Positions 12,268 through 50,569 are shown, counted from the first letter of the stretch. The stretch: 64,000 nt of DNA from an uncultured Pelagibacteraceae bacterium (GCA_902589795.1 CACIUJ010000001.1:17030-81029); one strand, 5' to 3'. The notes: generated by a model not told the origin, from the letters alone. Numbers and translations are program-made.

Positions 12268-12268
12268 A

Positions 12269-14687: not shown

Positions 14688-14718
14688 TTGAATAATTAAT
14701 GTTAAATGGGGGAAAAAT

Positions 14719-15669: not shown

Positions 15670-15700
15670 TAGCTATTAACAAGAAAGCTAACAAATTATA

Positions 15701-15739
15701 ATCTCCCCCGGCATATTATGTTGGGGGGGATTTTTTTTT
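15701..15739 (+). terminator. Rho-independent terminator/attenuator directly after tmoX
   Basis: Stem ATCTCCCCC (15701-15709) / GGGGGGGAT (15723-15731) with one G-U pair, a 13-nt loop, then a T9 run (15731-15739). Confidence 0.75.
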
Positions 15740-15765
15740 GATATAATTTTGTGTAAAATATAAAA

Positions 15766-16140: not shown

Positions 16141-16148
16141 TTAAAATA

Positions 16149-16700: not shown

Positions 16701-16763
16701 GGAGGCAAAAACAGTAATTAGTGTGTATATTTATTTTTATTTCGTATAAATTGTTAAAAAATT

Positions 16764-17795: not shown

Positions 17796-17798
17796 ATT

Positions 17799-19952: not shown

Positions 19953-19968
19953 AATTAAAAAAAAGTAT

Positions 19969-27756: not shown

Positions 27757-27759
27757 TAG

Positions 27760-28026
27760 ATGTTAGAAATTAAATGCCCATATTGCGGAAAAAGATCTCA
27801 AAATGAATTTTCTTATGGTGGAGATGCAAATATAAAAAGACCAGAGCTTGGAAAGGAAGTTTCTGATAGGGAATGGGATGATTTTGTCTACTTTAGAAAA
27901 AATCCAAGAGGAATGCATTTAGAGTTGTGGCACCACGTAGCTGGCTGTAGACAGTGGTTTAAAGTATCACGAGATACATCAACACATGAAATTTTTAAAA
28001 CATCAAAAATAAACGAGGAATTATAA
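27760..28026 (+). CDS. soxD: Sarcosine oxidase delta subunit family protein
   Basis: 88 aa. Zn-ribbon-like 'CPYCGKRSQNEF' and 'WHHVAGCRQWF'. Position between the beta and alpha subunit genes. Confidence 0.85.
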   Translation: MLEIKCPYCGKRSQNEFSYGGDANIKRPELGKEVSDREWDDFVYFRKNPRGMHLELWHHVAGCRQWFKVSRDTSTHEIFKTSKINEEL

Positions 28027-28033
28027 TTTTTAT

Positions 28034-31030
28034 ATGACCCAAAAATATCGACTGGATAAAGGTGGTTTAGTCAAAAGAGATAAAGAGATTTCTTTTAAAT
28101 TTAATGGAAAAAAATATTTTGGATATAAGGGTGATACATTAGCTTCAGCATTGTTAGCTAACGGGGTTCATTTAGTTGGAAGAAGTTTTAAATACCATAG
28201 ACCAAGAGGTTTTATAGGAGCTGGTGTAGATGAACCTAATGCTAAAGTTCAATTATACAGTGGAGCTAAAACAGAACCTAATGCTGTTGCTACAGAAGTG
28301 GAACTCGTCGAAGGTTTAGTTGCAAAAAGTCAAAATTGTTTTCCATCAGTTTCTTTTGATTTTGGAGAAATTAATAACTTTTTAAGCAAAATTTTTCCAG
28401 CAGGGTTTTATTATAAAACTTTCATGTGGCCAAAAAATTTTTGGTATAAAATATATGAACCTATAATTAGAAAAGCTGCGGGTCTAGGAGTTGCTCCTTT
28501 AAAGCCTGATCCCGATCGTTATGAACATAAGTTCGAATATTGCGATATTTTAGTTGTTGGTTCAGGACCCTCAGGGTTAGCTAGCGCTCTAGCAGCGGCA
28601 AAAAACGGGGCTCGAGTAATTTTAGCTGAAGACAAACCTAGATTCGGAGGGAGTTTACTTACTGATGAAGTGACTATAGGAAATAAAAAAGGAAAAGATT
28701 GGGCTGACGAATCGATAGAAAAATTAAAGACAATGCCTAATGTCATTGTTAAAAAAAGATCTCAAGTTTTTGGATACTATGATCATAACATGATGGTGAT
28801 GTTTGAAAGAACAAAGGATCATCTGGAAAATCCAACACAATATATCCCTAGACAAAGACTTTGGTATATAAGAGCAAAGGAAGTTATAGCTTCAACTGGC
28901 TCAATAGAAAGACCTTTGGTTTTTGGTAACAATGATAGACCAGGGATAATGTTGGCTTCAGCGGCCAAAGAATATTTAAAAGTTTACGGAGTCTTAGTAG
29001 GAAAAAAACCAATTATTTTTACTAACAATGACAGTGCATACGAAACGGCTATAGAATTTAAAAAAAATGGAATAGATCCGTTGGTTGTAGATGTTAGGAA
29101 AAACATTGAAAGTTCAGTAATTAGAGAAGCAAAAAATTTAAATATTAAAATTAAATTTTCCCATGCAATAGCAAACACCAAGGGACATTTAAGAGTAAAA
29201 TCTGCTATGATTGGTAAATTAAATGAAAAAAAATCTAATTTTGAGAGCTTAGAAGAAGTTTCTTGTGATTGTGTATGTGTTTCCGGCAACTGGACACCTA
29301 CCGTCCATCTTTCATCTCAGTCAGGAAATAAACTTAAGTTTGATGAGACTATTAATGCATTTATTCCAAATCAGTCTCGCCAGAATGAAAACACAATAGG
29401 ATCAGCAACAGGTTCATTTACACTTAAAAAATCTCTGGAAGAGGGATTCAATAAAGGATTTGAATTATCAAATAAAATAACCAAAAAAAATATAAAAAGT
29501 GATATTCCAATATCAAATGAAAGAATCAATGAAGAACATGATAAACTTTGGTGTATGCCACTTCCGAAGAACAAAAACTACAAAAGGTGTGTAGATTTTC
29601 AAAACGATGTTTATGTTTCTGATATAGAACTAGCTATAAGAGAAGGTTTTAGATCTATTGAACATGTAAAAAGATATACAACACTTGGCATGGCCACTGA
29701 CCAAGGAAAAACGAGTAATCTAAATGGTTTGCAATTAGTTTCAAATATTGAAAAGAAAATAGTTCCAGAAGTTGGCCATACTACTTTTAGGCCACCTTAT
29801 ACTCCAGTAACTATAGGGGCTATAGTAGGAAGAGAAGTTGGAAAAGATTATAGACCAACAAGAAAATCACCTATGCATGCATGGCATGAAAAAAATAATG
29901 CGGTATTCGTTGATGCGGGTTTATGGTTAAGACCAAGATACTATAAACAAGGTAAAGAAAATTTATATGAAGCCTCAAAAAGGGAAGCTGCAAATGTAAG
30001 AAGCAATGTTGGATTGTGTGATGTTACATCGCTTGGAAAAATAGATATTAAAGGATCAGATTCTGCTGAATTTTTAAATAGAGTTTACACAAATGCTTGG
30101 ATGAAGTTGCCAATTGGTAAAGCAAGATATGGAGTTATGTTAAGAGAAGATGGAATGATTTTTGATGATGGGACTACAACTCGAATTTCAGAAAATCATT
30201 TTCATATGACAACAACAACAGCTCAAGCAGTTAATGTTTTAGCTCATTTAGAACACTACCTACAGGTAGTTTGGCCTGAATTAGATGTAAATGTTTTATC
30301 GACCACAGAACAATGGGCAGGTGCAGCTTTAGCAGGACCCAATTCTAGAAATTTATTAGAAAAAATTTTTCCAGAAATAGATGCTTCTAACGAAGCTTTA
30401 CCATTTATGGGATATAAAGAGGCGGATTTATATGGTGTGCCTGCAAGAATTTTTAGAATTTCATTTTCAGGTGAGTTGGCGTACGAAATAAATGTGGAAT
30501 CCGGCTATGGAGTTTTCATGTGGGAAAAAATAATAGAACTTGGAAAAGAAATGGGTATTGAACCGTATGGAACGGAAGCTCTTTCAACTTTAAGAATTGA
30601 AATGGGACATGTGGCTGGTTCGGAAATTGATGGTAGAACAATACCTTCTGATCTTTCTCTTGATGGCATGTTGAGTAAGAAAAAGGATTTTATAGGAAAA
30701 AGGTCTTTAAGCAGAGAAGGTTTTGTTGAAACAGGTAGAGAAAAAATTGTGGGTGTAGTTCCTATAGATAAAAAAACTATGATACCCGAAGGATCTCATT
30801 TAGTTGAAGATAGTAACGCCAAATTACCCAATCCAAAACTAGGCCACATATCAGCATCTTGTTGGAGCGTTGAGTATAATAATCCCTTTTCTCTTGCAAT
30901 TCTTAAAGATGGAAAAAACAAAATAGGCGAAAAACTTTATGCTCTCTCTCCCCTAAAAAACAAAAGTATACAAGTGGAAATAGTATCTTCGCACTATGTT
31001 GATCCTAAAGGAGAAAGAGTTAGATCATGA
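28034..31030 (+). CDS. soxA: Sarcosine oxidase alpha subunit family protein (NAD/FMN domains plus C-terminal GcvT-type THF domain)
   Basis: 998 aa. 'ILVVGSGPSGLASALAAA', and a C-terminal aminomethyltransferase fold ('DVTSLGKIDIKGSD', 'SFSGELAYEINV'). Confidence 0.85.
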   Translation: MTQKYRLDKGGLVKRDKEISFKFNGKKYFGYKGDTLASALLANGVHLVGRSFKYHRPRGFIGAGVDEPNAKVQLYSGAKTEPNAVATEVELVEGLVAKSQNCFPSVSFDFGEINNFLSKIFPAGFYYKTFMWPKNFWYKIYEPIIRKAAGLGVAPLKPDPDRYEHKFEYCDILVVGSGPSGLASALAAAKNGARVILAEDKPRFGGSLLTDEVTIGNKKGKDWADESIEKLKTMPNVIVKKRSQVFGYYDHNMMVMFERTKDHLENPTQYIPRQRLWYIRAKEVIASTGSIERPLVFGNNDRPGIMLASAAKEYLKVYGVLVGKKPIIFTNNDSAYETAIEFKKNGIDPLVVDVRKNIESSVIREAKNLNIKIKFSHAIANTKGHLRVKSAMIGKLNEKKSNFESLEEVSCDCVCVSGNWTPTVHLSSQSGNKLKFDETINAFIPNQSRQNENTIGSATGSFTLKKSLEEGFNKGFELSNKITKKNIKSDIPISNERINEEHDKLWCMPLPKNKNYKRCVDFQNDVYVSDIELAIREGFRSIEHVKRYTTLGMATDQGKTSNLNGLQLVSNIEKKIVPEVGHTTFRPPYTPVTIGAIVGREVGKDYRPTRKSPMHAWHEKNNAVFVDAGLWLRPRYYKQGKENLYEASKREAANVRSNVGLCDVTSLGKIDIKGSDSAEFLNRVYTNAWMKLPIGKARYGVMLREDGMIFDDGTTTRISENHFHMTTTTAQAVNVLAHLEHYLQVVWPELDVNVLSTTEQWAGAALAGPNSRNLLEKIFPEIDASNEALPFMGYKEADLYGVPARIFRISFSGELAYEINVESGYGVFMWEKIIELGKEMGIEPYGTEALSTLRIEMGHVAGSEIDGRTIPSDLSLDGMLSKKKDFIGKRSLSREGFVETGREKIVGVVPIDKKTMIPEGSHLVEDSNAKLPNPKLGHISASCWSVEYNNPFSLAILKDGKNKIGEKLYALSPLKNKSIQVEIVSSHYVDPKGERVRS

Positions 31031-31614
31031 CAGCTATTAGTCCATTGGAATTTGTCCACAAAAAAGGAATTTTTGGAGATCACCACAAAAAAAATGAAAA
31101 TGAATTATTGCAAATCTCAGAAGTTAAAAATTTAATAATAATTCAAGTTGTTCAATACAAAAAATCAAAAACTAGTATAAATGATGTAAAAATTGATGGT
31201 TTAGAATTTTCAGAAAAAAGTTCTCACGTCACATCAAATAAACAGACAAGAATTCTTTGGAGTGCCCCAAGAACCTGGTTAGTTTTATCTAATAAAGAAA
31301 ATATTTTCGACACTATTAAAAGTAATTTAAATGAAAGAGATTTTGCAATTACCGACATATCACACTCAAGAGCTGTAATCCAAATAAAGGGTATGCAGGC
31401 GAAGGAAGTGTTAAAAAAAGGTAGTCCAATTAATTTTAGTGAATTTAATGTAAATAGATGTTCAGGAACAATATTCCATGGAATTACTATAGTAATAGAT
31501 TTAATTTCAAATGATCCAGATACATTTAATATTTTAACTTTAAGAAGTTTTGGAGAATCTTTTTATCATCATATTACTGATTCTGCTTTAGAATTTGGAT
31601 ATGTGGGAGTTTAA
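31027..31614 (+). CDS. soxG: Sarcosine oxidase gamma subunit family protein
   Basis: 195 aa. ATGA overlap with soxA. Size and position fit the gamma subunit. Sequence conservation is weak, so the call rests mainly on operon position. Confidence 0.65.
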   Translation: MTAISPLEFVHKKGIFGDHHKKNENELLQISEVKNLIIIQVVQYKKSKTSINDVKIDGLEFSEKSSHVTSNKQTRILWSAPRTWLVLSNKENIFDTIKSNLNERDFAITDISHSRAVIQIKGMQAKEVLKKGSPINFSEFNVNRCSGTIFHGITIVIDLISNDPDTFNILTLRSFGESFYHHITDSALEFGYVGV

Positions 31615-35801: not shown

Positions 35802-36980
35802 TTATATACTAGCCATTTCTAAATGAAGTTTTGTTCCAAAATATTTATATCTATCTAGAATTTCTTCTTTAAGCTCAACTCCCAATCCAGGTTTTGTTGG
35901 TGGAATAACGTAGCCATCATTCCATTCAATGGGATCTTTTATGATCTCTGAATAAAAACCTTTCCAGTCTTTTATTCCTTCCAAGATAAGAAAATTTGGA
36001 CTACATGCTGAAATTTGAATATTAGCTGCTCCTACTACAGGGCCACAATAAAGGTGAGGAGCAATTTGCGCATAATGAGTTTCTGCTAAACCAGCTATTT
36101 TTTTTGATTCAAGTATACCACCAGCTCTGCCCAAATTCATTTGTAAAATACTAGCCGCTTTATATTCTAAAATTTTTGAAAATTCATATTTAGTCGATAA
36201 TCTTTCTCCTGTTGCAATTGGTATAGTAGTTGATAAAGCAACTTTTCCCATTTCCTCAAAATTTTCTGGTGGAGTAGGTTCTTCAAACCACATTGGATCA
36301 AATTTTTCTAGTCTTTTTGCTAATCTAATGGCTGATGAAGTCGTCATCTGACCGTGTGTCCCAATTAAAATATCACTTTTATTTTTAACAGTATCGTGGA
36401 TTGTTTTTACAAAATTTTCTACTTTAATTAATTCTTCCAATGTAAGATGACGAGGGTCTAGTGGGGTGTATGAACCAACGGGATCAAATTTAACTGCGGT
36501 AAATCCCTTTTCAATATATTCGTTTGCTCTTTCGGCAGCTAAATTAGCATCTTCGTAAACATTTAATTTATCCGTTTCTTTCGGGTACAGGTAAGTGTAT
36601 GAACGCAATTTATTATTAACTAAGCCACCTAGTAATTCATATATAGGTTTATTCAGTTCTTTCCCAATGATATCCCAACAAGCCATTTCAATACCGCTAA
36701 TAATTCCTAGCAATGAAACGTCAGGTCTTTGTGTGTAGCCACTTGAATAAATAGTTCTCCATAATTTTTCTATTTTAAAAGGATCTTTACCTTTTACATA
36801 TCTTTCAAACACGTCATCAATCATTTTTGAAACTACATTTGGATGAAAAGGAACAGAATAAATTTCTCCATACCCAAATATATCTTTATCAGTGAAAAGC
36901 TTTATAAAAACCCAATATCTTCCACCAAAATGTGGAGGAGGATTTCCAACAACATAAGTTTTTATTTTTTTCAGTTTCAT
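35802..36980 (-). CDS. Enolase-superfamily enzyme (mandelate racemase / galactonate-dehydratase-like subgroup)
   Basis: 392 aa. N-terminal capping domain 'GGRYWVFIKLFTDKDIFGYGE' and 'EMACWDIIGKELNKPIYELLGG'. Barrel-domain acidic ligands are plausible in 'KFDP', 'FEEP' and 'ATGER'. Divergent from a betaine-type binding-protein gene. Confidence 0.75.
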   Translation of the reverse strand: MKLKKIKTYVVGNPPPHFGGRYWVFIKLFTDKDIFGYGEIYSVPFHPNVVSKMIDDVFERYVKGKDPFKIEKLWRTIYSSGYTQRPDVSLLGIISGIEMACWDIIGKELNKPIYELLGGLVNNKLRSYTYLYPKETDKLNVYEDANLAAERANEYIEKGFTAVKFDPVGSYTPLDPRHLTLEELIKVENFVKTIHDTVKNKSDILIGTHGQMTTSSAIRLAKRLEKFDPMWFEEPTPPENFEEMGKVALSTTIPIATGERLSTKYEFSKILEYKAASILQMNLGRAGGILESKKIAGLAETHYAQIAPHLYCGPVVGAANIQISACSPNFLILEGIKDWKGFYSEIIKDPIEWNDGYVIPPTKPGLGVELKEEILDRYKYFGTKLHLEMASI

Positions 36981-37110: not shown

Positions 37111-38133
37111 ATGAACACACTTAAAAAAATAATAGTTTCTTCGCTAGTTGCGTTAGGTTTTTTTGTATTTAATGTAAATGCAAACGCAGCGTGTGGAAAA
37201 CTTGTTATTGCTGAACAAAACTGGGCATCAGCAGAATTGATGGCCAACGTTGATAAAATCATTTTAGAAAAAGGTTATGGTTGCGAGGTTGAATTAGTGC
37301 CTGGTGCTACTATGCCAACTTTTACTTCTATGAATGACAAAGGATCACCAGACATGAACCCAGAACAATGGGCTAATGCTGTTTATACACCTTTAAAAAA
37401 AGCAGTATCTGAAAAAAGATTAATCATAGCTAACAAGGCGCCGATCACTGGTCTTGGTGAAGGTTGGTGGTTAACTCCTGGATCAATAAAAAAACATCCA
37501 GAGTTAAAAGGAATGACTGCTCTTCAAATTTTGGAAAGACCAGATTTATTTCCATATAAAGAAGATCCTTCAAAAGGAGCGTTCGTAGGATGTCCTGCAG
37601 GATGGGGATGTCAGTTAGCAAATGCTAATCTTTTTAGAGCTTTTGAAATGGAGAAAAAAGGTTGGGTGTTAGTTGACCCAGGTTCTGCCGCAGGTCTTGA
37701 TGGATCAATTTCTAAAGCAGCCGATTCAGGAGATACTTGGTTTGGTTATTATTGGAATCCAACTTCAATTGTTGGAAAATATAATTTACAACCAGTTGAT
37801 TTCGGAGTGGAATTTGCAGGTAGAGATAATTGGGATAATTGCATAACGCTTGCAGAGCAAGATTGTGCAGACCCTAAACCAACTGCATGGACTAAATCAG
37901 AAGTTAATTCTATCGTTACAGCTAATTTTGCAAAAACTGGAGGAAAAGACGCTTTGAAATATGTTAAGAAACGTACTTTCCCAGGTGAAGTAATGAATGG
38001 AATGCTTGTGTACATGGCTGATAACCAAGCAAAAGGTTCAGATGCAGCAATTGAGTTTTTGAAAAAGCATGAGAAGATATGGGGTAAATGGGTATCTGGT
38101 AGTGCTAAGAAAAAAATCAAAGCTGGTCTTTAA
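37111..38133 (+). CDS. Betaine-type (ProX/OpuAC family) ABC substrate-binding protein
   Basis: 340 aa. Signal peptide 'LVALGFFVFNVNANA'; 'AEQNWASAELMANV' and 'GYYWNPTS' are typical of glycine-betaine/proline-betaine binding proteins. Confidence 0.8.
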   Translation: MNTLKKIIVSSLVALGFFVFNVNANAACGKLVIAEQNWASAELMANVDKIILEKGYGCEVELVPGATMPTFTSMNDKGSPDMNPEQWANAVYTPLKKAVSEKRLIIANKAPITGLGEGWWLTPGSIKKHPELKGMTALQILERPDLFPYKEDPSKGAFVGCPAGWGCQLANANLFRAFEMEKKGWVLVDPGSAAGLDGSISKAADSGDTWFGYYWNPTSIVGKYNLQPVDFGVEFAGRDNWDNCITLAEQDCADPKPTAWTKSEVNSIVTANFAKTGGKDALKYVKKRTFPGEVMNGMLVYMADNQAKGSDAAIEFLKKHEKIWGKWVSGSAKKKIKAGL

Positions 38134-38147
38134 AATATAATTTATTT

Positions 38148-38183
38148 AACGAGCCTATTAAAAAATAGGCTCGTTAATTTTTT
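38148..38183 (+). terminator. Rho-independent terminator/attenuator between the binding-protein and permease genes
   Basis: Perfect 12-bp stem AACGAGCCTATT (38148-38159) / AATAGGCTCGTT (38164-38175), a 4-nt loop, then AATTTTTT (T-run 38178-38183). Confidence 0.75.
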
Positions 38184-38191
38184 GAGGTAAA

Positions 38192-39076
38192 ATGGAGTTT
38201 TTAACAAAATTTCCAGCAATGGATCGTACAGCTCTCATGGAAATGAGAAAAGGAATTGATTTTGCCTTTAGAGATTTTTCTAGAACATATGGAGATGGTA
38301 TAGAAGCTTTTTTTGATCCATTATTATTTTTTTTGGTCGGATTGGAAAAATTATTAATTAATTCTCCTTGGCCAATAATAATAGCAATTATTTGTGGTTT
38401 ATCTTGGTTAGGTTCAAAAAATTGGAAACTTGTTCTAGGAGCTGGAATAGCTTTCTTCTGTATTGGTTACTTTGGTATGTGGAAAGATACCATGGCAACA
38501 GTAGCAATCATAACTGTATGTGTAATTATCTGCATGTCAGCAGGAATACCTATAGGGGTAATTATGTCTCGTTCAGACAGGGCAGAAAAAGCAATATTAC
38601 CTATTTTAGATATGATGCAAACCATTCCAAGTTTCGTATATTTAATTCCAATACTGATGTTGCTTGGCATTGGAAAAGTCCCAGGATTAATAGCTGTTTG
38701 TATATATGCAGTTCCGCCAATAATAAGGTTAACAAATCTTGGAATTAGAGAAGTTGATAAAGAAACTTTAGAAGCCAGCACTGCTTATGGAGCAACAACA
38801 TTTCAAAAATTAAAAACAGTACAAATTCCACTTGCACTTCCAACCGTTTTCGCCGGAGTAAACCAAACAATCATGATGGCTTTAGCAATGGTAGTAATAG
38901 CTTCAATGATTGGTGTAAAAGGCTTAGGTGTGCCAATTTTACGTGCTGTTTCAAACCAGTATCTTGCTTTAGGATTGTTTAATGGTTTAGCAATAGTGGC
39001 ATTAGCAATTATTTTTGATAGAATTGCTCAAGAATATGGTCGTAGAATACAAAAACATCGCGGACAAAAAAAATAA
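38192..39076 (+). CDS. ABC permease, ProW/OpuAB type (single domain)
   Basis: 294 aa, about six hydrophobic helices. Conserved permease loop 'ETLEASTAYGATTFQKLKTVQIPLALP'. No ATPase gene is adjacent. Confidence 0.85.
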   Translation: MEFLTKFPAMDRTALMEMRKGIDFAFRDFSRTYGDGIEAFFDPLLFFLVGLEKLLINSPWPIIIAIICGLSWLGSKNWKLVLGAGIAFFCIGYFGMWKDTMATVAIITVCVIICMSAGIPIGVIMSRSDRAEKAILPILDMMQTIPSFVYLIPILMLLGIGKVPGLIAVCIYAVPPIIRLTNLGIREVDKETLEASTAYGATTFQKLKTVQIPLALPTVFAGVNQTIMMALAMVVIASMIGVKGLGVPILRAVSNQYLALGLFNGLAIVALAIIFDRIAQEYGRRIQKHRGQKK

Positions 39077-39096
39077 AAAATTAAAGATTGTAATTA

Positions 39097-40071
39097 ATGA
39101 ATAATTATCGAATAGATAATCTTCAATATTGTAACTGGTCAAAAGAAATATTTAAGATTAACAATGAAGCAAAACTAGACGCTGTTCACGTAACTATCGC
39201 TTATCACGAAGATTTTAATGAAGTTAAAAAAAATATAGAAATTTGGAACAAACATTTTAAAGAAAATAAAAATTTAATTTTTCATGGAAAAACATTTAAA
39301 GATATAGAAAAAGCTAATAAAGAAAGAAAAACAGCAATATTTTTTGGTTTTCAAAATTGTTCTCCTATTGCTGATGATATTAGATTAGTTGAAAAAGTAT
39401 ACGATTTAGGTGCAAGATTTATGCAACTTACTTATAACAATCAATCTTTATTGGCTACAGGATGTTATGAAAAGAATGACAGTGGAGTTACGAGAATGGG
39501 AAAAGAAGTTATTAAAGAAATGAATAGATTAGGGTTGGTGGTAGACATGTCTCATTCAGCTGAAAAATCTACATTCGATGCTATAGAAATATCTTCAAAA
39601 CCCATAGCTATTACTCATGCAAATCCATCATTTTGGTTTGCTGCTAAGAGAAATAAATCTAGTCAATTGTTAAAAACTTTAGCAGATTCTAAAGGAATGT
39701 TGGGTCTTTCTTTATATCCTCATCACTTAAAAGATAAGTCAAACTGTACACTCGAAAGTTTTTGTGAAATGGCAGCTAAAACAGCTGAACTCATGGGCGT
39801 TAAGCATATTGGAATAGGATCAGATCTTTGTATTGGACATCCAGATTCAGTCGTTGAATGGATGAGAAATGGAAAATGGACTAAAACAAAAGATTTTGGT
39901 GAAGGAAGTAGCACTAATCCAAATTTTCCCAAGCAACCAAAATGGTTTGAGGATGCCCGTGGATTTAAAAATTTAGAAGAAGGTTTAAAAAAAGTTGGAT
40001 TTCAAGAAGCCGAGGTAAATGACATACTAGGAAATAACTGGTATAATTTTTACCGAGGTATAAACAATTGA
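39097..40071 (+). CDS. Peptidase M19 (renal/membrane dipeptidase) fold protein with apparently degenerate metal ligands
   Basis: 324 aa. M19 core motifs are present: 'ARFMQLTYNNQS', 'MNRLGLVVDMSHS', 'IAITHANPS', 'HIGIGSDL'. Three positions that are canonical Zn-ligand motifs read differently: 'IDNLQY' for 'DGHND', 'FGFQNC' for 'LEGG' and 'LTYN' for 'LTHN'. Alignment by eye. Confidence 0.7.
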   Translation: MNNYRIDNLQYCNWSKEIFKINNEAKLDAVHVTIAYHEDFNEVKKNIEIWNKHFKENKNLIFHGKTFKDIEKANKERKTAIFFGFQNCSPIADDIRLVEKVYDLGARFMQLTYNNQSLLATGCYEKNDSGVTRMGKEVIKEMNRLGLVVDMSHSAEKSTFDAIEISSKPIAITHANPSFWFAAKRNKSSQLLKTLADSKGMLGLSLYPHHLKDKSNCTLESFCEMAAKTAELMGVKHIGIGSDLCIGHPDSVVEWMRNGKWTKTKDFGEGSSTNPNFPKQPKWFEDARGFKNLEEGLKKVGFQEAEVNDILGNNWYNFYRGINN

Positions 40072-41738
40072 GCAAACCAAATATAAATTTGAGAGAACCT
40101 TCTGTGGTAATGAAGCTATCTAGACTAGGTTCGTTTCATCAATCAAAATTATCATTTCTTAGAAGTTTTATTAGAGAATTTAAAAGTTGGAATTTTAAAA
40201 GAGATCTGTTTGATCTTGATAAAAATGGCTATGGCACAGCAGTTTATTCTTTTGAAAAAAAAGGAAGAAATTATTCATTAGTATGTTTTGCCCAACATAT
40301 AAAACCAGAAGAAAGATCAGACAGGGTGATAGCTACCAAATGGGACGCGGCTTTTGTTTTACATGATGGGAAGCCCAAAAAAAAAGATATAAATCGTTTA
40401 AAAGAAAATGTACCAAAGCAAGAAGTAGGAAGGGTTTCTTATAAAGAACTTACTTTATCAAGAGCTAATAAATCAATAAGAGCATTTGATCACGTAGTGA
40501 ATTCACTAAGCGTAGGAAAACAACCCGATAAAGAATTATTAAAAAAGGTTGGTTATTTATATAGAACCACAGCAGTTTACGGATCAGGAAAATTTGGTCT
40601 TGCTGATCGTTTTAGGATTAAAGATAGAAAAGAAATTTATGGACCATTTAGATTAGAAATGATGTTAGTCTATCTTGTTAGACAATTTACTTTCGATCAG
40701 GTTAACCATATTGCAAAATGCAAGAATTCAAAAAAAGCTGTGATGTTGGAAGAAAGCATCGCAAGAAATTTAGGAATAGGCAATTCAACAGGACTTGGTA
40801 TGGCTCCTTTTATAGTAAACCATCCAACTCTTTTGCATAATTGGATTTATTGTAGAGAAAAAGCTTTAAAGCAAATAAGATCAATTAAAAATGTTAATGA
40901 AAATGATTTTAATGTTTTCAAGAATTGTCTTAATAAGTCAAAAAACAACATAGATACTTGGTCAACTGATAGCGAATATCAAATAAATAAAATTAATTCT
41001 TTAAAGTTAGATTTAAAAATTTTTTTAAAGTATTTAGAAAACTTAAATTGTAATAAAAATAATTACTTGTGGAATCTTATTTACACTTGGGCTGAAAAAA
41101 ATCTAAAAGAAGAATGTATAGAATATATTGTATCCATGATGATGGAGCCTTATGATTCAATCATTGACCCCTTAATAAATAACATGAGTTCTGAAGAAGA
41201 CAAATATTTTAATATTCCAGCAGATAAAAAAATTTCTGACCTTAAAAAAATTATTGAAAAAAACTATAAATTAATTATTGAAATTGATTTTAAAGATAAA
41301 GATAGTACAAGAAATTTTTGGTTTATATCAAAAAACAAAGAGGAACCCAGGGTAGCCAATAGATATGAAGAACATGGATCTAATCTAGAACAGCCTTTAG
41401 CTATCGCGAGAGATATAAAGAAACTTTATGAAAAGTTAGCCAAGAGCAATCAAAAAGAAACTGTTGCAAATTTTTTATTAAGCAATGATAGTTTAAGACA
41501 TGTAGTTAGAAGAGCTTTTATAGTTGAAAAATTTCCGTACTCTGAAATTCAAGACAATACTATTGGAGCCTCTTTGGTGCCTATAGATATGCTTCGCTTA
41601 AAACTTTCTTTCTTTGGAGCTGTAAAATTTGATCCGAGATCAGATAAATGGCTTAGGATTAATATGTACCAGGGAGCACCTCTGCCTCACGAAATGAAAT
41701 CTTCAAATGACAATTGGGTTTATAACTCACTGAATTAA
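40068..41738 (+). CDS. Hypothetical protein, 556 aa (542 aa if the ATG at 40110 is used), unknown family
   Basis: Long uninterrupted ORF in an AT-rich genome. The TTG start overlaps the M19 stop (TTGA); the first ATG is at 40110. No TM helices, P-loop or metal motif recognised. The N-terminal half looks conserved ('RTTAVYGSGKFGLADRF', 'GIGNSTGLGMAPFIVNHPTLLHNW'). Confidence 0.6.
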   Translation: MSKPNINLREPSVVMKLSRLGSFHQSKLSFLRSFIREFKSWNFKRDLFDLDKNGYGTAVYSFEKKGRNYSLVCFAQHIKPEERSDRVIATKWDAAFVLHDGKPKKKDINRLKENVPKQEVGRVSYKELTLSRANKSIRAFDHVVNSLSVGKQPDKELLKKVGYLYRTTAVYGSGKFGLADRFRIKDRKEIYGPFRLEMMLVYLVRQFTFDQVNHIAKCKNSKKAVMLEESIARNLGIGNSTGLGMAPFIVNHPTLLHNWIYCREKALKQIRSIKNVNENDFNVFKNCLNKSKNNIDTWSTDSEYQINKINSLKLDLKIFLKYLENLNCNKNNYLWNLIYTWAEKNLKEECIEYIVSMMMEPYDSIIDPLINNMSSEEDKYFNIPADKKISDLKKIIEKNYKLIIEIDFKDKDSTRNFWFISKNKEEPRVANRYEEHGSNLEQPLAIARDIKKLYEKLAKSNQKETVANFLLSNDSLRHVVRRAFIVEKFPYSEIQDNTIGASLVPIDMLRLKLSFFGAVKFDPRSDKWLRINMYQGAPLPHEMKSSNDNWVYNSLN

Positions 41739-41740
41739 TT

Positions 41741-42355
41741 ATGCGTTCTTTTAGTGAAATTGATACAACATCAAAACGCGCATCCAAAGCTGCAGGATTT
41801 GCTTGGGGAGTTGCTGAAGAGGTTGGTAAAAACATGAGAAATCTAGAAATGTTTGGTTTACCAGGAATAAAAAATTTAAATTTATATCTTAAAAAAATAA
41901 AAAAAATTCCATCAGAAAAACCCAAAAAGATAGAAAAAAAAAACAAACCACAATCCAAAGAATTTTGCCCTATTTATTGTGGTACAGCATTTTTAGACAA
42001 TTGCAAAAATTTAGAAAATTTAAAGTTAATTAAATTTTTTAACGTCAGTTATCCTTTATTGATTTTACCTTTTTTAAGCAGAGCATCAGATATAGTGGGA
42101 AAAAAAATATCAGTAAAATATGAAAAAAATAGTTTTTTGCTTAATTTTGACAAAAGCATTTTTTCCAATAATATTAATAATAAAAAAACTATTTCTACAA
42201 CAAAAGAAATTTCCATAGAATTTTTAGAAAACAATAATTCATTTTCTACCAAAGAATGGAAAGAACTTTATAGGCTTTCCGAGGAAACTTTTGTTGAAGA
42301 AACAGAAAGTTTAAAAAAGAAAGGCGCAGGCGCAGGTTTAACTGATAATGATTAA
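41741..42355 (+). CDS. Hypothetical protein, 204 aa (conserved N-terminal ~45 aa, K/N-rich remainder)
   Basis: ATG 2 nt after the preceding stop. The N-terminus 'SEIDTTSKRASKAAGFAWGVAEEVGKNMRNLEMFGLPG' resembles, from memory, DUF3726-type proteins; this is unverified. The rest is low complexity. Confidence 0.5.
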   Translation: MRSFSEIDTTSKRASKAAGFAWGVAEEVGKNMRNLEMFGLPGIKNLNLYLKKIKKIPSEKPKKIEKKNKPQSKEFCPIYCGTAFLDNCKNLENLKLIKFFNVSYPLLILPFLSRASDIVGKKISVKYEKNSFLLNFDKSIFSNNINNKKTISTTKEISIEFLENNNSFSTKEWKELYRLSEETFVEETESLKKKGAGAGLTDND

Positions 42356-42398
42356 AAACATGATTTACAAAAGTTAGGATAAAGTATAATTTCCAAAC

Positions 42399-43832
42399 AT
42401 GCTAAATAAAAAGAATTTTTATATCGATGGAAAATGGACGTCTCCAATAGAGCCACGAAATTATAAAGTTATTGATCCATCAAATGAAGAACCTTGTGCT
42501 GAAATATCTCTTGGTGGAAAGAAGGATATAGATAAGGCTGTTAGTGCTGCAAAAAAAGCTTTCGCAACATGGGCTTTTTCAAAAAAAGAAGAGAGATTGG
42601 AATTATTAGAAAAATTATATGTTGTTTATAAAAAACGATGGTCTGAGATGGCAAAACTCATCACTCTTGAGATGGGAGCTCCCATGAAATTTTCAACTGA
42701 AATGCAAGCCGCTACAGGAGCAAGTCACATTAAGTCCTTTAAAAATATTTTAAAAGATTTTAAATTTGAGAAAGACTTAGGAGAAGAAAAGAATAATCAA
42801 AAATTATTGTACGAGCCAAAGGGTGTTTGTGCTTTGATTACACCTTGGAATTGGCCAATTAATCAAGTTAATTTAAAAGTAATTCCAGCTTTAGCATCAG
42901 CATGCACAGTAGTTTTAAAACCATCTGAAATAGCACCCTTGTCGTCAATGTTGCTTGCGGAAATGATTGATGAGGTCAAATTTCCTTCAGGAGTTTTTAA
43001 TTTAGTGAATGGAGACGGAGCTATTACTGGAGATGCTTTAACAAGTCACCCTGACGTTGATATGATTTCTTTTACAGGATCAACAAGAGCCGGTGCATTA
43101 ATTTCTCAAAATGCAGCAAAAGATTTTAAAAGAATAAGCTTAGAGTTAGGTGGAAAAGGAGCGAATATAATTTTTAAGGACGCCGATTCAGAAGCAATAG
43201 CAAGAGGTGTTTTAAGATGTTTTAGAAATTCAGGACAATCGTGCAACGCTCCTACAAGAATGCTTGTTGAAAAATCCATTTATAGTGAAACTGTAGAAAA
43301 AGTAAAAAAATTAGCAAATGACACAAAGGTAGATTCTCCACAAAAAGACGGTGATCATATTGGACCAGTGGTTTCTGAGGTACAATTTAAAAAAATTCAA
43401 ACTTTAATTCAGAAGGGAATTGATGAGGGTGCAAAATTAGTTGCAGGAGGTATTGGTAAACCTAAAGGATTAGAAAAAGGTTATTATGTTAAACCAACTG
43501 TTTTTGCTGATGTTAATAATCAAATGGAAATTGCAAGAACTGAAATTTTTGGCCCTGTGCTATCTATAATTCCGTTTGAAAATGAAGACGAAGCTATTTC
43601 AATAGCAAATGACACTCCATATGGTTTAACAAATTATATTCAAACCCAAGATAAAGAAAAAATTAAAAGAGTTGCAAGAAAACTTAGATCTGGGATGGTG
43701 GATGTTAACGGTGTTGGTATCGCAGTTGCTTCTCCTTTTGGTGGCTATAAACATTCTGGTATTGGACGAGAAGCTGGAACCGAGGGCTTGATAGAATTTT
43801 TAGAAGTTAAAACTGTTGGTGGCTGGAACTAA
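42399..43832 (+). CDS. NAD(P)+-dependent aldehyde dehydrogenase
   Basis: 477 aa. 'ITPWNWP', 'FTGSTRAG', catalytic Glu 'SLELGGKG', catalytic Cys 'NSGQSCNAPTR', 'EIFGPV' and 'FGGYKHSGIGREAG'. Confidence 0.85.
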   Translation: MLNKKNFYIDGKWTSPIEPRNYKVIDPSNEEPCAEISLGGKKDIDKAVSAAKKAFATWAFSKKEERLELLEKLYVVYKKRWSEMAKLITLEMGAPMKFSTEMQAATGASHIKSFKNILKDFKFEKDLGEEKNNQKLLYEPKGVCALITPWNWPINQVNLKVIPALASACTVVLKPSEIAPLSSMLLAEMIDEVKFPSGVFNLVNGDGAITGDALTSHPDVDMISFTGSTRAGALISQNAAKDFKRISLELGGKGANIIFKDADSEAIARGVLRCFRNSGQSCNAPTRMLVEKSIYSETVEKVKKLANDTKVDSPQKDGDHIGPVVSEVQFKKIQTLIQKGIDEGAKLVAGGIGKPKGLEKGYYVKPTVFADVNNQMEIARTEIFGPVLSIIPFENEDEAISIANDTPYGLTNYIQTQDKEKIKRVARKLRSGMVDVNGVGIAVASPFGGYKHSGIGREAGTEGLIEFLEVKTVGGWN

Positions 43833-47308: not shown

Positions 47309-47313
47309 TTTAA

Positions 47314-48549: not shown

Positions 48550-48550
48550 A

Positions 48551-49747: not shown

Positions 49748-49840
49748 TTAAAAATCCTAGCATTTCAGTAAAAATTGGCAATAGATATCAATTGAAATTA
49801 CTAGACAGGACTAGGGGTCCGCTGGTATATCCCGTTGATT

Positions 49841-50569
49841 ATGAATTTCTCAATAGAAATTACTATGAAGACTGACCTTTCGGAATTACCTAAAGTTAAG
49901 GATGTCTATATTACTATGCTGCCCGGTAATGATTACAGGCAGGTGGCAAATAAGGCTAGTGAGCTAGTTAAATCTGGGTTTAACCCAGTCCCCCATTTTC
50001 CTGCTCGTTCTATTAAGAATAAGGCTGAATTAAAAGACTACGTAAGCAGATGCAAGGACGGAGGAGTGAAACAGGCTCTAATAATAGGGGGTAGTGCGCA
50101 ACCCATTGGAGATTTTCACTGTTCGTTGCAGTTATTAGAGACAAAATTATTTGAGGGGTGGAAGATAGGAATCGCTGGACATCCAGATGGGTCCCCTGAT
50201 ATATCCGATCAAGATTTAGAAAAAGCTATGATCGATAAGAAACCTTACGCAGACTATATAGTTACACAATGGTTATTAGATTATAATCCGATAGCTAAAT
50301 TTATTTCTAAACAAACTTTACCAGTTCATGTAGGAATTACTGGGCCTCTAAAAATAAGCAGTTTATTAAAGTTTGCAAATATTGTTGGGGCAAAAAATTC
50401 AATTAATTTTCTTAAATCTAATGTTACTAAAGCGGTAGATTTATTAAAACCTAAGGATCCAAATGAAATGATTGAAAAACTCAAAGGATCAACCGAGAAT
50501 TTTCACATTTATACTTTTGGTGGTCTTAAGGAAACTAATAAATGGTTAACGGAGAATAATTATGCCTAA
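49841..50569 (+). CDS. Short methylenetetrahydrofolate-reductase-like (MetF-fold) protein
   Basis: The ORF track starts at TTG 49835; the ATG at 49841 ('MNFSIEIT') is preferred. MTHFR-like landmarks by eye: 'FSIE', 'VYITMLPG', 'VPHFPARS', 'IGIAGHPDGSP', 'ADYIVTQWLLD', 'VHVGITGP'. About 240 aa is shorter than typical MetF, and the 'RGD' acid appears to be replaced ('IGGS'). Confidence 0.6.
   Translation: MNFSIEITMKTDLSELPKVKDVYITMLPGNDYRQVANKASELVKSGFNPVPHFPARSIKNKAELKDYVSRCKDGGVKQALIIGGSAQPIGDFHCSLQLLETKLFEGWKIGIAGHPDGSPDISDQDLEKAMIDKKPYADYIVTQWLLDYNPIAKFISKQTLPVHVGITGPLKISSLLKFANIVGAKNSINFLKSNVTKAVDLLKPKDPNEMIEKLKGSTENFHIYTFGGLKETNKWLTENNYA

What the first reader, a model, noticed from the sequence alone, without database searches (positions are those of the whole stretch)
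37111..43832. Binding protein, permease, degenerate M19, two unknown proteins and an ALDH: candidate undescribed osmolyte/quaternary-amine catabolic operon
Six co-directional genes are packed with minimal spacers:
- 39076 to 39097
- a TTGA overlap at 40068-40071
- a 2-nt gap at 41738 to 41741
- a 43-nt gap before the ALDH

The operon starts with a betaine-type binding protein followed by an attenuator hairpin, the layout of a substrate-inducible uptake and catabolism unit. The catalytic core is not a known betaine pathway. It contains an M19-fold protein that seems to have lost canonical zinc ligands. It also contains a 556-aa protein and a 204-aa protein in which I find no P-loop, TM segment, cofactor motif or metal motif. 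An aldehyde dehydrogenase closes the unit, and an enolase-superfamily enzyme is divergently transcribed. The whole unit lies inside an island otherwise devoted to methylated-amine and betaine oxidation, so a nitrogenous osmolyte is the likely substrate. The chemistry (ring opening, amide hydrolysis or C-N cleavage giving an aldehyde) is not predictable from known families.
Basis: partly seen in the sequence, partly recalled or inferred. Interest (0 to 1): 0.8.

Follow-up and report, generated by a model that had tools for sequence, protein, structure and literature searches.

The report
SAR11 homarine-breakdown genes, rearranged variant
The three "unknown" core genes are the SAR11 version of the homarine (N-methylpicolinate) breakdown genes homC-homB-homA published in 2026, here joined to a betaine-type uptake protein pair and to an aldehyde dehydrogenase that is not the usual one, so the pathway is known but this layout is a variant.

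Summary
The M19-like, 556-aa and 204-aa (DUF3726) genes match homC, homB and homA of the homarine operon (Ferrer-Gonzalez 2026, PMC13236597). They are 61%, 47% and 30% identical to the Phaeobacter proteins and 61%, 45% and 26% to the Ruegeria proteins, in LysR|ALDH-M19-(BCCT)-HomB-DUF3726 clusters laid out as that paper describes.

The trio is contiguous in 75-76 of 76 SAR11-like loci. It recurs in Actinobacteria, Gammaproteobacteria and other Alphaproteobacteria, and natural HomB-HomA fusions exist.

The rest is lineage-specific:
- **ALDH:** it is 30-35% identical to true HomD, whose orthologues share 53-79%.
- **Regulator:** there is no LysR HomR.
- **Binding protein and permease:** in 20 of 26 loci that carry the pair, it sits in an operon with a GcvT-like demethylase pair instead.
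- **ATPase:** the pair has no ATPase of its own.

HomC lacks three of the five M19 zinc ligands. A confident HomB model has no fold relative in the PDB.

This is a trimmed, rearranged variant whose enzymology is still open.

The parts
39097..40071 (+). homC-like gene. It encodes an M19-fold amidohydrolase with a degenerate metal site, probably the amide (N-formyl) hydrolase of the pathway.
   Evidence: Pfam Peptidase_M19 at 2.2e-71, aligned only from profile position 43. It is 61% identical to the M19 gene of the Phaeobacter and Ruegeria R-D-C-B-A clusters. It sits directly upstream of homB in 75 of 76 SAR11-like loci. The bridging Glu is replaced by invariant Q86, HxD is absent, and H153, H174 and D243 are kept. 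The nearest solved structure is 2I5G 'amidohydrolase'.
40068..41738 (+). homB-like gene. It encodes the 556-aa large subunit of the presumed ring-opening enzyme and belongs to an orphan family.
   Evidence: It has no Pfam family. It is 47% identical over its full length to the Phaeobacter protein and 45% to the Ruegeria protein in hom-type clusters. The family has 1440 clusters at 50% identity, and some members are 760-810 aa fusions with DUF3726. The AF2 model has pLDDT 81 and pTM 0.86, with no PDB fold match (best E = 1.3) and no PDB sequence match.
41741..42355 (+). homA-like gene. It encodes the 204-aa DUF3726 small subunit.
   Evidence: Pfam DUF3726 at 1e-20. It lies directly downstream of homB in 76 of 76 SAR11-like loci. 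The N-terminal S-x-x-E-I...G-x-x-W-G-x-x-E-E motif, a Cys-Pro pair and the C-terminal AGAG...DND tail are conserved from SAR11 to Gordonia. It is fused to HomB in P0122, P0123 and P0126.
42399..43832 (+). Aldehyde dehydrogenase that is not an orthologue of HomD. It may be a non-orthologous stand-in or only a neighbour.
   Evidence: It is 30-35% identical to HomD-type ALDHs, which share 53-79% among themselves. Its best PDB match is 3I44 at 624 bits. The same ALDH follows homA only in L082. In L083 it lies 3 kb away, behind an isocitrate lyase gene and a regulator. It is absent from the flanks of the other 74 SAR11-like loci.
37111..38133 (+). OpuAC-family periplasmic binding protein of an ABC importer, a candidate homarine or betaine binder.
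   Evidence: Pfam OpuAC at 1.4e-43. It is below cut-off for ProX and choline equivalogs. The nearest structure is 7YLE at 166 bits. It sits directly upstream of homC only in the window, L082 and L083. Elsewhere it heads a binding protein-permease-244aa-GcvT-like operon that converges on homA.
38146..38183 (+). Intercistronic terminator-like hairpin (14-bp stem, 4-nt loop) followed by a T-run.
   Evidence: Searches give -21.7 kcal/mol and z = -5.3. A strong hairpin sits at the same position in all 17 relatives examined, with several different stem sequences, in both gene arrangements.
38192..39076 (+). ProW/ChoW-like ABC permease with no cognate ATPase gene beside it.
   Evidence: Pfam BPD_transp_1. 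NCBIfam choline and ProW permease models score below cut-off. It is 60-62% identical to the permease of the complete binding protein-permease-ATPase-homD-C-B-A clusters in L070-L073.
35802..36980 (-). Divergent enolase-superfamily (MR_MLE) gene of unknown function, only loosely linked to the trio.
   Evidence: Pfam MR_MLE_N and MR_MLE_C. It is below cut-off for galactonate dehydratase. The nearest structures, 4E5T and 4E4U, are uncharacterised. A 52%-identical gene follows homA in Amylibacter. It occupies the same position in L082 but is absent in L083 and the other SAR11 loci.
26500..31614 (+). Sarcosine-oxidase / N-methylglutamate-dehydrogenase-type heterotetramer genes, the candidate enzyme for the next step (N-methylglutamate to glutamate).
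   Evidence: It scores above cut-off for the soxB and soxA 'family' models, which do not separate sox from mgd. A sox-like cluster lies within 5 kb of the trio in many SAR11 loci, directly upstream in L083, and beside the Phaeobacter hom cluster. The paper shows that mgdABCD converts the homarine product.
49835..51986 (+). A 244-aa protein plus a GcvT/DmdA-like aminomethyltransferase. These are the usual operon partners of the binding-protein/permease pair in other SAR11 genomes.
   Evidence: In 20 of the 26 loci that carry the binding-protein/permease pair, orthologues 72-84% identical follow the permease in the same direction. NCBIfam's DMSP demethylase model scores 241 bits against a cut-off of 410.
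16764..17795 (+). The only ABC ATPase found in the window, inside the tmoXVW-like TMAO transporter. It is a possible in-trans partner for the orphan permease (inference).
   Evidence: Pfam ABC_tran. It lies between Tdm and Tmm. It is 45-47% identical to the ATPase of the L070-L073 hom-linked transporter.

Best explanation
Genes 39097-42355 are the SAR11 form of homC-homB-homA, the core of the homarine (N-methylpicolinate) catabolic pathway.

**Shown elsewhere, by genetics in Ruegeria pomeroyi and Cobetia.** These genes are required for growth on homarine. The ring is opened with the N-methyl group still attached. The product is N-methylglutamate, which a sox-like N-methylglutamate dehydrogenase turns into glutamate plus a C1 unit.

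**Inferred here.**
1. HomB and the small DUF3726 protein HomA form one enzyme that attacks and opens the pyridinium ring.
2. The M19-fold HomC has lost the binuclear zinc site. It hydrolyses the resulting N-formyl or amide bond. This fits the published intermediates: C7H9NO5 plus water gives C6H9NO4 plus formate.
3. An aldehyde dehydrogenase oxidises the C5 aldehyde.
4. The sox/mgd-like genes at 26500-31614 and the folate enzymes of the island finish the job.

**This lineage.** A rearrangement put a betaine-type binding protein and permease directly upstream of the trio, and a general-type ALDH directly downstream. The result is a compact unit without the LysR regulator, the BCCT transporter or the HomD aldehyde dehydrogenase of the characterised operons. 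The binding protein and this ALDH probably supply uptake and aldehyde oxidation, but that is the weakest part of the account.
For: **Published system.** The homABCDER operon is described in PMC13236597. HomA is short and HomB is long. HomC is a predicted peptidase and HomD an ALDH. HomR is the regulator and homT a betaine-type transporter. The Cobetia order is E-A-B-T-C-D-R. In R. pomeroyi the genes run SPO3188 to SPO3192 as A, B, C, D, R. SAR11 is listed as a carrier. SPO3188 is annotated 'hypothetical'.

**Matching layouts found here.**
- Phaeobacter: LysR|ALDH-M19-BCCT-563aa-DUF3726.
- Ruegeria: LysR|ALDH-M19-563aa-DUF3726.
- Vibrio: LysR|RidA-ALDH-M19-BCCT-581aa-DUF3726.

**Identity to the window proteins.** HomC is 61% identical. 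HomB is 45-47% identical over its full length. HomA is 26-30% identical.

**Conservation of the trio.** It is contiguous in 75 of 76 and 76 of 76 SAR11-like loci, and it is present in Gordonia, Acidimicrobiales, Geminicoccales, Marivibrio, Limimaricola and Amylibacter. HomB-HomA fusion proteins exist.

**Continuity within SAR11.** The SAR11-related loci L070-L073 carry HomB 59% identical to the window's. They also keep a true HomD (53-57% to the other HomDs) and a complete OpuAC-type ABC importer in the order binding protein-permease-ATPase-D-C-B-A. This links the SAR11 trio to the full operon and links an ABC betaine importer to hom genes a second time.

**Downstream step.** sox/mgd-like genes lie next to the trio in SAR11 and in Phaeobacter.
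Against: - I could not obtain the sequences of the experimentally tested proteins (SPO3188-3191, ACFLL8_11495-11515). Orthology therefore rests on gene order, protein lengths, the paper's descriptions and close relatives of R. pomeroyi.
- No SAR11 culture has been shown to degrade homarine.
- The window has no HomD orthologue (best 32-34% identity) and no HomR, yet homD and homR mutants of the model organisms cannot grow on homarine.
- The binding-protein/permease pair is normally co-transcribed with a GcvT-like demethylase pair (20 of the 26 loci that carry it). Its substrate may therefore be another methylated compound.
- The ALDH's 90%-identity cluster is much larger than those of the hom proteins (1656 members against 96-386), and the ALDH is separated from homA in L083. 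It may be an unrelated neighbour.
- HomB shows no flavin, nucleotide or metal domain and no fold relative, so the ring-opening chemistry is not established.
Confidence: 0.7

Rival explanations
1. Only the trio is a homarine module. The six-gene 'operon' is an accident of rearrangement. On this view the binding protein and permease serve the GcvT-like demethylase pathway or general betaine uptake, and the ALDH is a general-purpose SAR11 enzyme with no role in this pathway. The aldehyde step, if SAR11 needs one, would be encoded elsewhere.
For: The binding protein-permease-244aa-GcvT-like arrangement is found in 20 of the 26 loci that carry the pair. The hairpin and the missing ATPase are features of that pair in both arrangements. 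The ALDH is not a HomD orthologue. No ALDH at all lies within 8 kb of the trio in 65 of 76 SAR11-like loci. The ALDH is displaced by an isocitrate lyase gene in L083. Its 90% cluster is far larger than those of the hom genes.
Against: In the window the six genes are co-directional with gaps of 0-58 nt, and L082 keeps the same order. Even in the other arrangement the binding-protein operon lies within 3 kb of homA. A second, independent SAR11 lineage has an OpuAC-type ABC importer inside its hom operon (L070-L073). The pathway needs an aldehyde oxidation in the model organisms.
Confidence: 0.4
2. The SAR11 trio is a paralogous cassette that handles a different N-heterocyclic or quaternary amine, such as trigonelline or another pyridinium or piperidine betaine, and not homarine.
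For: SAR11 HomB forms its own clade, about 46% identical to the clade containing the validated organisms' relatives. HomD, HomR and BCCT are absent. The family clearly has diverged cassettes: S. meliloti pSymB carries IclR-HomB-like (24% identity)-hypothetical-dipeptidase-ABC importer-aminotransferase. Amylibacter combines the trio with Ldh_2 and enolase-superfamily genes in place of HomD.
Against: There is a continuous chain of similarity. The window's HomB is 59% identical to that of L070-L073, which keep a true HomD. HomC is 61% identical to the Roseobacter orthologues, against 39% for the S. meliloti paralogue. The paper's homB profile recruits Pelagibacter transcripts that track homarine concentration in the field.
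Confidence: 0.2
3. One reading: a wholly undescribed catabolic pathway whose core families have never been studied.
For: Public databases still name these proteins 'hypothetical', 'DUF3726' and 'membrane dipeptidase'. No paper in the library mentions DUF3726. HomB has no Pfam family and no structural relative.
Against: PMC13236597 (Nat Microbiol, 2026) gives genetics, metabolomics, isotope tracing and a census that includes SAR11.
Confidence: 0.05

Closest known systems
homABCDER homarine catabolic operon of Ruegeria pomeroyi DSS-3 (SPO3188-SPO3192) and Cobetia sp. OBi1 (Ferrer-Gonzalez et al. 2026, PMC13236597)
   Same: It has the same three core families: a DUF3726 small protein next to a roughly 560-aa orphan protein, plus an M19-like 'peptidase'. 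It is linked to a betaine-type transporter and to sox/mgd-like genes. The paper itself reports the operon in Pelagibacter.
   Different: The gene order is C-B-A, not A-B-(T)-C-D or R|D-C-(T)-B-A. There is no HomD orthologue; a different ALDH subfamily sits at the end. There is no LysR HomR and no HomE. The transporter is an ABC binding protein plus permease without an ATPase, not a BCCT carrier. Most SAR11 loci carry the trio alone.
Trigonelline (N-methylnicotinate) tgn cluster of Acinetobacter baylyi ADP1 (Perchat et al. 2018; recalled from memory and from the hom paper's citation)
   Same: The logic is the same: the ring of an N-methylpyridinium carboxylate is opened before demethylation, followed by hydrolase and aldehyde dehydrogenase steps.
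   Different: TgnAB is a two-component flavin oxygenase. HomB and HomA show no flavin reductase or oxygenase domain, no other Pfam domain except DUF3726, and no PDB fold match. They work in a similar role but are not members of that family.
PDB 2I5G 'amidohydrolase' subgroup of the M19 / renal dipeptidase family
   Same: It has the same fold and length, 234 bits to the HomC profile. Its N-terminus likewise lacks His-x-Asp, and it has Gln in place of the bridging Glu.
   Different: 2I5G lacks the HomC-invariant His31, His37 and Glu38, and no function is recorded for it. Canonical M19 enzymes (DPEP1 1ITQ, GliJ 5LWZ, Sco3058 3ID7) are binuclear zinc dipeptidases and align only from residue 38-44 onward.
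Uncharacterised HomB-like / HomA-like / dipeptidase cassette on Sinorhizobium meliloti pSymB
   Same: The same three-gene module lies next to an ABC importer.
   Different: HomB is only 24% identical and M19 39%. It has an IclR regulator, a PotD-type binding protein and an aminotransferase in place of an ALDH. It presumably handles another substrate.
Hydroxyproline-betaine (hpb) clusters, with an enolase-superfamily HpbD next to a betaine binding protein (Zhao et al. 2013; recalled from memory)
   Same: An enolase-superfamily gene is divergently placed beside an OpuAC-type binding-protein gene.
   Different: The window's enolase-superfamily protein is nearest the galactonate/mannonate dehydratase group and the uncharacterised structures 4E5T and 4E4U. 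It scores only 1.6e-15 against the cis-3-hydroxyproline dehydratase model. The unit contains no Rieske demethylase.

Membership tests
hom (homarine catabolism) operon | HomB: a roughly 560-aa orphan-family protein | tested here: met
   The 556-aa protein is 45-47% identical over its full length to the proteins at the homB position of the Ruegeria and Phaeobacter R-D-C-B-A clusters.
hom (homarine catabolism) operon | HomA: a short protein adjacent to homB (adjacent in 97.7% of genomes according to the paper) | tested here: met
   The DUF3726 gene starts 2 nt after homB. It is adjacent in 76 of 76 SAR11-like loci, and fusions exist.
hom (homarine catabolism) operon | HomC: a peptidase-like protein nearby | tested here: met
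   The M19-like gene overlaps the homB start. It is 61% identical to the Roseobacter counterparts.
hom (homarine catabolism) operon | HomD: the operon's own aldehyde dehydrogenase (essential in Cobetia and R. pomeroyi) | tested here: not met
   Both ALDHs in the window are 30-35% identical to HomD-type proteins, which share 53-79% with each other. The rest of the genome was not available.
hom (homarine catabolism) operon | HomR: a LysR regulator beside the operon | tested here: not met
   There is no LysR gene near the unit. The only weak LysR-like hit is at 62949-63266.
hom (homarine catabolism) operon | Direct orthology to the mutated genes SPO3189-3191 and ACFLL8_11495-11515 | not testable with these tools
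   Those sequences could not be retrieved. R. pomeroyi was not among the listed hits, and the paper's supplements are not held.
hom (homarine catabolism) operon | Conversion of homarine to N-methylglutamate by the organism | not testable with these tools
   This needs culture or enzyme work. The paper offers only metatranscriptomic attribution to Pelagibacter.
Peptidase M19 (renal dipeptidase) | M19 / amidohydrolase-type domain | tested here: met
   Pfam PF01244 scores 241 bits. PDB matches include 2I5G, GliJ, DPEP1 and Sco3058.
Peptidase M19 (renal dipeptidase) | Binuclear zinc ligands: His-x-Asp, a bridging Glu and two His | tested here: not met
   The N-terminal 37-43 residues do not align to any canonical member and contain no HxD. 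The bridging Glu position is Gln86, invariant in 9 orthologues. Only H153 and H174 (and D243) are retained. The ligand positions are taken from established knowledge of DPEP1.
OpuA/ProU-type betaine ABC importer | OpuAC binding protein plus ProW-type permease | tested here: met
   Both score below the cut-offs of the ProX, ChoX, ProW and ChoW equivalog models.
OpuA/ProU-type betaine ABC importer | Cognate ATPase (ProV/OpuAA) in the same unit | tested here: not met
   No ATPase lies beside the pair in the window or in the 22 other SAR11 loci that carry it. The only ATPase seen in the window is at 16764-17795.
Two-component flavin oxygenase (TgnAB-like), the analogy proposed for HomAB | Recognisable flavin reductase and flavin-dependent oxygenase domains | tested here: not met
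   HomB has no Pfam family. HomA has only DUF3726. Nothing emerged from the profile search or Foldseek against the PDB. The conserved Gly-rich AGAG stretch of HomA lies in its last 10 residues.

The most novel reading that the evidence does not exclude
Most SAR11 run a pared-down homarine route built on only homC-homB-homA. HomB-HomA would be a structurally unprecedented enzyme, with no PDB relative and no flavin, metal or nucleotide motif, that opens an N-methylpyridinium ring by chemistry different from the proposed flavin oxygenase. The steps done by HomD and HomR elsewhere would be replaced by unrelated genes: a general ALDH, the enolase-superfamily protein, or the GcvT-like pair. In addition, the hom-adjacent OpuAC protein may be the counterpart of SAR11_0797, the one HTCC1062 'ProX' for which no high-affinity ligand was found (PMC11485210). 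It would then be the missing high-affinity homarine receptor.
Probability: 0.25. Interest if true: 0.7.

Novelty: new variant of a known kind. Interest (0 to 1): 0.4.

Why it matters
Homarine is one of the most abundant small nitrogen compounds released by phytoplankton, and SAR11 makes up about a quarter of ocean cells. The way SAR11 wires this pathway therefore affects marine carbon and nitrogen budgets. Three points are useful beyond the published paper.

1. In SAR11 the conserved unit is homCBA, not homABCD. A true HomD is present in only 4 of 76 loci. Gene censuses that count any nearby ALDH as homD may misjudge who has the complete pathway.
2. An ABC binding-protein/permease pair is linked to the locus. 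This gives a concrete, cheap ligand-binding test for an orphan SAR11 transporter.
3. HomB-HomA has no structural or cofactor precedent, and HomC is an M19 enzyme without its zinc ligands. The ring-opening and deformylation chemistry is therefore an open enzymology problem.

Tried and rejected
- **Literature on DUF3726:** nothing found.
- **Genome scan with the 22-sequence HomB alignment:** it failed because no stretch was conserved enough. It worked with 9 sequences, but the 80 loci returned were dominated by SAR11, so R. pomeroyi was not fetched.
- **Retrieving the R. pomeroyi proteins:** I searched with the Phaeobacter HomB, but DSS-3 was not among the 120 listed hits. Supplementary tables of both key papers are not held. 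The trigonelline paper and the Noell and Giovannoni paper are not held.
- **HomA structure:** the model has pLDDT 59, and the DUF3726 domain and C-terminal tail fall below 50. It was not used for fold search because the matches would be meaningless.
- **HomB fold search:** no hit below E = 1.
- **HomB profile against PDB sequences:** only coiled-coil noise.
- **Is DUF3726 a fragment of the Ldh_2 family?** hhalign aligns 48 N-terminal residues with E = 0.002 but probability of only 14%. This is a weak lead and not accepted.
- **Is the enolase-superfamily gene homE?** Rejected. The Vibrio, Ruegeria and Phaeobacter clusters carry RidA, OYE or Ldh_2 genes but no enolase-type gene, and the paper says Pelagibacter lacks homE.
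- **Internal promoters:** promoter-like sites are no more frequent than in shuffled sequence (31 against 34.8), so none is claimed.
- **Riboswitch or known RNA:** no Rfam family in the window.
- **Hydroxyproline-betaine-type pathway, suggested by the enolase gene beside a betaine binding protein:** not supported.

Full report
**1. Observation**

The junction sequences confirm all four spacers: a 20-nt spacer before the M19 gene, the TTGA overlap at 40068-40071, a 2-nt gap before the 204-aa gene and a 43-nt gap before the ALDH. The TTG start of the 556-aa gene is credible. Residues 9-14, upstream of the first methionine, are conserved in 75 homologues from SAR11 and Roseobacters.

Family scans give:
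- OpuAC for the binding protein;
- a ProW/ChoW-like permease;
- Peptidase_M19, aligned only from profile position 43;
- nothing for the 556-aa protein;
- DUF3726 for the 204-aa protein;
- Aldedh for the last gene;
- an MR_MLE enolase-superfamily protein on the opposite strand.

The hairpin after the binding-protein gene has a 14-bp stem and a T-run, folds at -21.7 kcal/mol and has a z-score of -5.3.

The neighbourhood is a methylamine and betaine island. It contains TMAO demethylase and TMA monooxygenase (both above NCBIfam cut-off), a tmoXVW-like transporter, a GmaS-type ligase, mgsABC-like genes, a sox/mgd-type tetramer, a DMGDH-like gene, a BHMT-like gene and formate-THF ligase.

**2. What the core is**

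A full-text search found Ferrer-Gonzalez et al. 2026 (PMC13236597). That paper defines homABCDER for homarine (N-methylpicolinate) catabolism.
- HomA is short and HomB is long. The two are adjacent in 97.7% of genomes and are modelled as a heterodimer.
- HomC is a predicted peptidase and HomD an aldehyde dehydrogenase.
- HomR is the regulator. HomE is auxiliary, and homT is a betaine-type transporter.
- In Cobetia the order is E-A-B-T-C-D-R. In R. pomeroyi, SPO3188 to SPO3192 are A, B, C, D, R.
- Mutants in B, C, D and R cannot grow on homarine.
- The ring is opened with the methyl group retained, giving N-methylglutamate. MgdABCD converts that to glutamate.
- The paper lists SAR11 among carriers, always without homE.

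I could not fetch the tested proteins themselves. I did find the same layouts in relatives:
- Phaeobacter inhibens: LysR|ALDH-'membrane dipeptidase'-BCCT-hypothetical 563 aa-DUF3726, next to sox-like genes.
- Ruegeria spp.: LysR|ALDH-M19-563 aa-DUF3726-Ldh_2.
- Vibrio campbellii: OYE, LysR|RidA-ALDH-M19-BCCT-581 aa-DUF3726.

The window proteins are 61% (M19), 45-47% (556 aa, full length) and 26-30% (204 aa) identical to these. On this basis I read 39097-42355 as homC-homB-homA.

**3. Conservation**

The HomB family has 1440 clusters at 50% identity. Several members of 760-810 aa are fusions of HomB with a DUF3726 domain, which supports a two-subunit enzyme.

In 76 SAR11-like loci, homC sits directly upstream of homB in 75. 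The exception is cut by a contig end. homA sits directly downstream in all 76. The trio also occurs in Gordonia, an Acidimicrobiales MAG, Geminicoccales, Marivibrio, Limimaricola and Amylibacter.

A distant paralogous cassette lies on S. meliloti pSymB, beside an IclR regulator, a different ABC importer and an aminotransferase. Its HomB is 24% identical and its M19 39%. The module has therefore been reused for other substrates.

**4. What is not conserved**

*Aldehyde dehydrogenase.* HomD-type ALDHs form a tight group. They share 71-79% identity among Phaeobacter, Gordonia, Geminicoccales, Limimaricola and Marivibrio, and 53-57% with the SAR11-related loci L070-L073. The window's ALDH is 30-35% identical to all of them, and so is the second ALDH at 69-1511. 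Its nearest solved structure is 3I44, an uncharacterised ALDH.

Across the 76 SAR11-like loci:
- 4 have a HomD-type ALDH;
- 2 have the window-type ALDH (L082 and L083);
- 65 have no ALDH within 8 kb.

In L083 the ALDH is separated from homA by an isocitrate lyase gene and a regulator. In L082 an SBF-family transporter is inserted between the permease and homC.

*Binding protein and permease.* The pair sits directly upstream of homC only in the window, L082 and L083. In 20 of the 26 loci that carry the pair, it heads a different operon. There it is followed by orthologues of window genes 49835-50569 (244 aa) and 50562-51986 (GcvT/DmdA-like), and the operon converges on homA from about 3 kb away. 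No ATPase accompanies the pair anywhere in this group. The only ATPase seen in the window belongs to the tmoXVW-like unit.

L070-L073 carry a complete binding protein-permease-ATPase set in front of homD-C-B-A. An OpuAC-type ABC importer has thus become linked to hom genes at least twice.

*Hairpin.* The intercistronic hairpin is a property of the binding-protein/permease pair. It is present in both arrangements, with several unrelated stem sequences. I read it as the usual partial terminator or stabiliser that raises the ratio of binding protein to permease.

*Regulator and other genes.* No LysR regulator, RidA, OYE or Ldh_2 homologue is present in the window.

**5. The proteins**

*HomC.* Canonical M19 enzymes (DPEP1, GliJ, Sco3058) align only from about residue 38-44 onward. 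The N-terminus (R-I-D-N/G/C-L-Q-Y-x-N-W-S) has no His-x-Asp. The bridging Glu is an invariant Gln86. His153, His174 and Asp243 are kept, and His31, His37/Glu38 and His209/His210 are additional invariants. The nearest structure is 2I5G, deposited only as 'amidohydrolase', which shares the missing HxD and the Gln.

*HomB.* The model is confident, with pLDDT 81 and pTM 0.86. Its weak spots fall exactly on the most conserved Gly-rich loops (172-179, 242-247). Foldseek against the PDB gives nothing better than E = 1.3 and TM below 0.15, and a family profile finds no PDB sequence. Conserved residues are dominated by Arg and Gly, with a single near-invariant His and no Cys.

*HomA.* The protein models poorly on its own, with pLDDT 59. 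Its conserved features are the N-terminal DUF3726 helices, a Cys-Pro pair and a C-terminal AGAG-(L-T/S)-D-N-D tail. I therefore find no support for a recognisable flavin domain. The paper's analogy to the TgnAB flavin oxygenase is a statement about role, not about family.

**6. Mechanism (inference)**

The published intermediates fit the following sequence:
1. HomB/HomA open the ring between C5 and C6.
2. This gives an N-formyl-N-methyl dehydroglutamate-type compound (C7H9NO5), after oxidation of the C5 aldehyde by an ALDH.
3. HomC hydrolyses the formamide. C7H9NO5 plus water gives C6H9NO4 plus formate.
4. Reduction gives N-methylglutamate. The Ldh_2-family or OYE genes seen in Ruegeria, Amylibacter and Vibrio are candidates for this step.
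5. The sox/mgd-type enzyme (26500-31614) and the folate enzymes of the island remove the methyl group.

Only the start and end compounds and the gene requirements are shown, and those in other organisms. The assignment of steps to HomB/HomA, HomC and the ALDH is my inference from the molecular formulas and the enzyme families.

**7. Comparison and verdict**

The trio passes the tests for HomA, HomB and HomC. The tests for HomD and HomR fail, so I do not file the six-gene unit as a standard homABCD(R) operon. It is a variant: homCBA plus a captured ABC binding protein and permease and a non-orthologous ALDH.

The substrate class and the type of chemistry were right. 'Undescribed' and 'one six-gene unit' were not.

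An untested lead remains. HTCC1062 has two characterised OpuAC-type binding proteins. SAR11_1302 binds TMAO, and SAR11_0797 ('ProX') had no high-affinity ligand (PMC11485210). The window likewise has a tmoX-like and a hom-adjacent OpuAC protein, so homarine is an obvious ligand to test on the SAR11_0797 counterpart.

**Scores**

- Interest: 0.4. The pathway is known, but three points are open and testable: the missing HomD in most SAR11, the orphan transporter, and the unprecedented HomB/HomA enzyme.
- Best explanation: 0.7.
- Most novel reading not excluded: probability 0.25, interest 0.7 if true.

Noticed in passing
window 49835-51986 (+); L004-L042 and L075, about 11000-13200 (-): A 244-aa protein with no family (its L008 orthologue gives a weak MTHFR-like hit) and a GcvT/DmdA-like aminomethyltransferase are the regular operon partners of the binding-protein/permease pair in 20 of the 26 loci that carry it. 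The substrate is unknown. It could be a THF-dependent demethylase for an imported betaine, or even for N-methylglutamate.
   Followed up: partly
window 44477-49747 (-): A tight minus-strand cluster holds an MDR-type dehydrogenase, a 3-hydroxyacyl-CoA-dehydrogenase-like gene, a HalD/WelO5-like gene, an M24 protein and a Rieske oxygenase. The M24 protein resembles DddP most closely (361 bits, below the 600 cut-off). The Rieske oxygenase is weakly GbcA-like. The HalD-M24-Rieske part recurs in L082 and L022. It looks like another uncharacterised betaine or sulfonium pathway.
   Followed up: partly
window 12269-21309: The TMAO/TMA module holds Tdm (1156 bits, above cut-off), an OpuAC protein (14719-15669), an ABC ATPase (16764-17795), a 717-aa fused double permease (17799-19952) and Tmm (746 bits, above cut-off). 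Its ATPase is the only one seen in the window and may have to serve the hom-adjacent permease as well.
   Followed up: partly
L082 6133-6981: In a close relative (HomB 89% identical), an SBF-family (bile acid/Na+ symporter-like) transporter gene is inserted between the ABC permease and homC. It is a third kind of transporter linked to hom genes.
   Followed up: no
L085 (S. meliloti pSymB) 6223-15665: A distant paralogous cassette: IclR-HomB-like (24% identity)-hypothetical 242 aa-dipeptidase-PotD-type ABC importer-aminotransferase. It is present on many pSymB replicons, and its substrate is unknown.
   Followed up: partly
L076 (Amylibacter) 6020-11329; L086 (Ruegeria) 9389-10396: Ldh_2-family genes (the family of imine and N-methyl-amino-acid dehydrogenases) flank the trio in Amylibacter and Ruegeria. 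Amylibacter has no HomD but has an enolase-superfamily gene 52% identical to window 35802-36980 and a shortened 144-aa HomA.
   Followed up: partly
P0122, P0123, P0126 (760-810 aa); P0228, P0251 (about 910-930 aa): These are natural HomB-DUF3726 fusion proteins. The longer forms (840-940 aa, about 28-30% identical) carry extra sequence that was not identified.
   Followed up: partly
window 26500-31614 (+): The sox-like heterotetramer scores above the 'family' cut-offs, which do not separate sarcosine oxidase from N-methylglutamate dehydrogenase. It is the only such set seen in the window, which also carries gmaS-like and mgsABC-like genes (2475-3800 and 6197-9346). It may serve both roles.
   Followed up: partly
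P0307 (Tritonibacter scottomollicae plasmid HomB): UniRef names this HomB homologue 'Zorya protein ...'. This looks like a propagated misannotation, because every other source calls the family hypothetical.
   Followed up: no
window 43842-44480 (-): A stand-alone 212-aa protein consisting only of a Lon substrate-binding (LON_substr_bdg) domain converges on the ALDH with a 9-nt gap.
   Followed up: no
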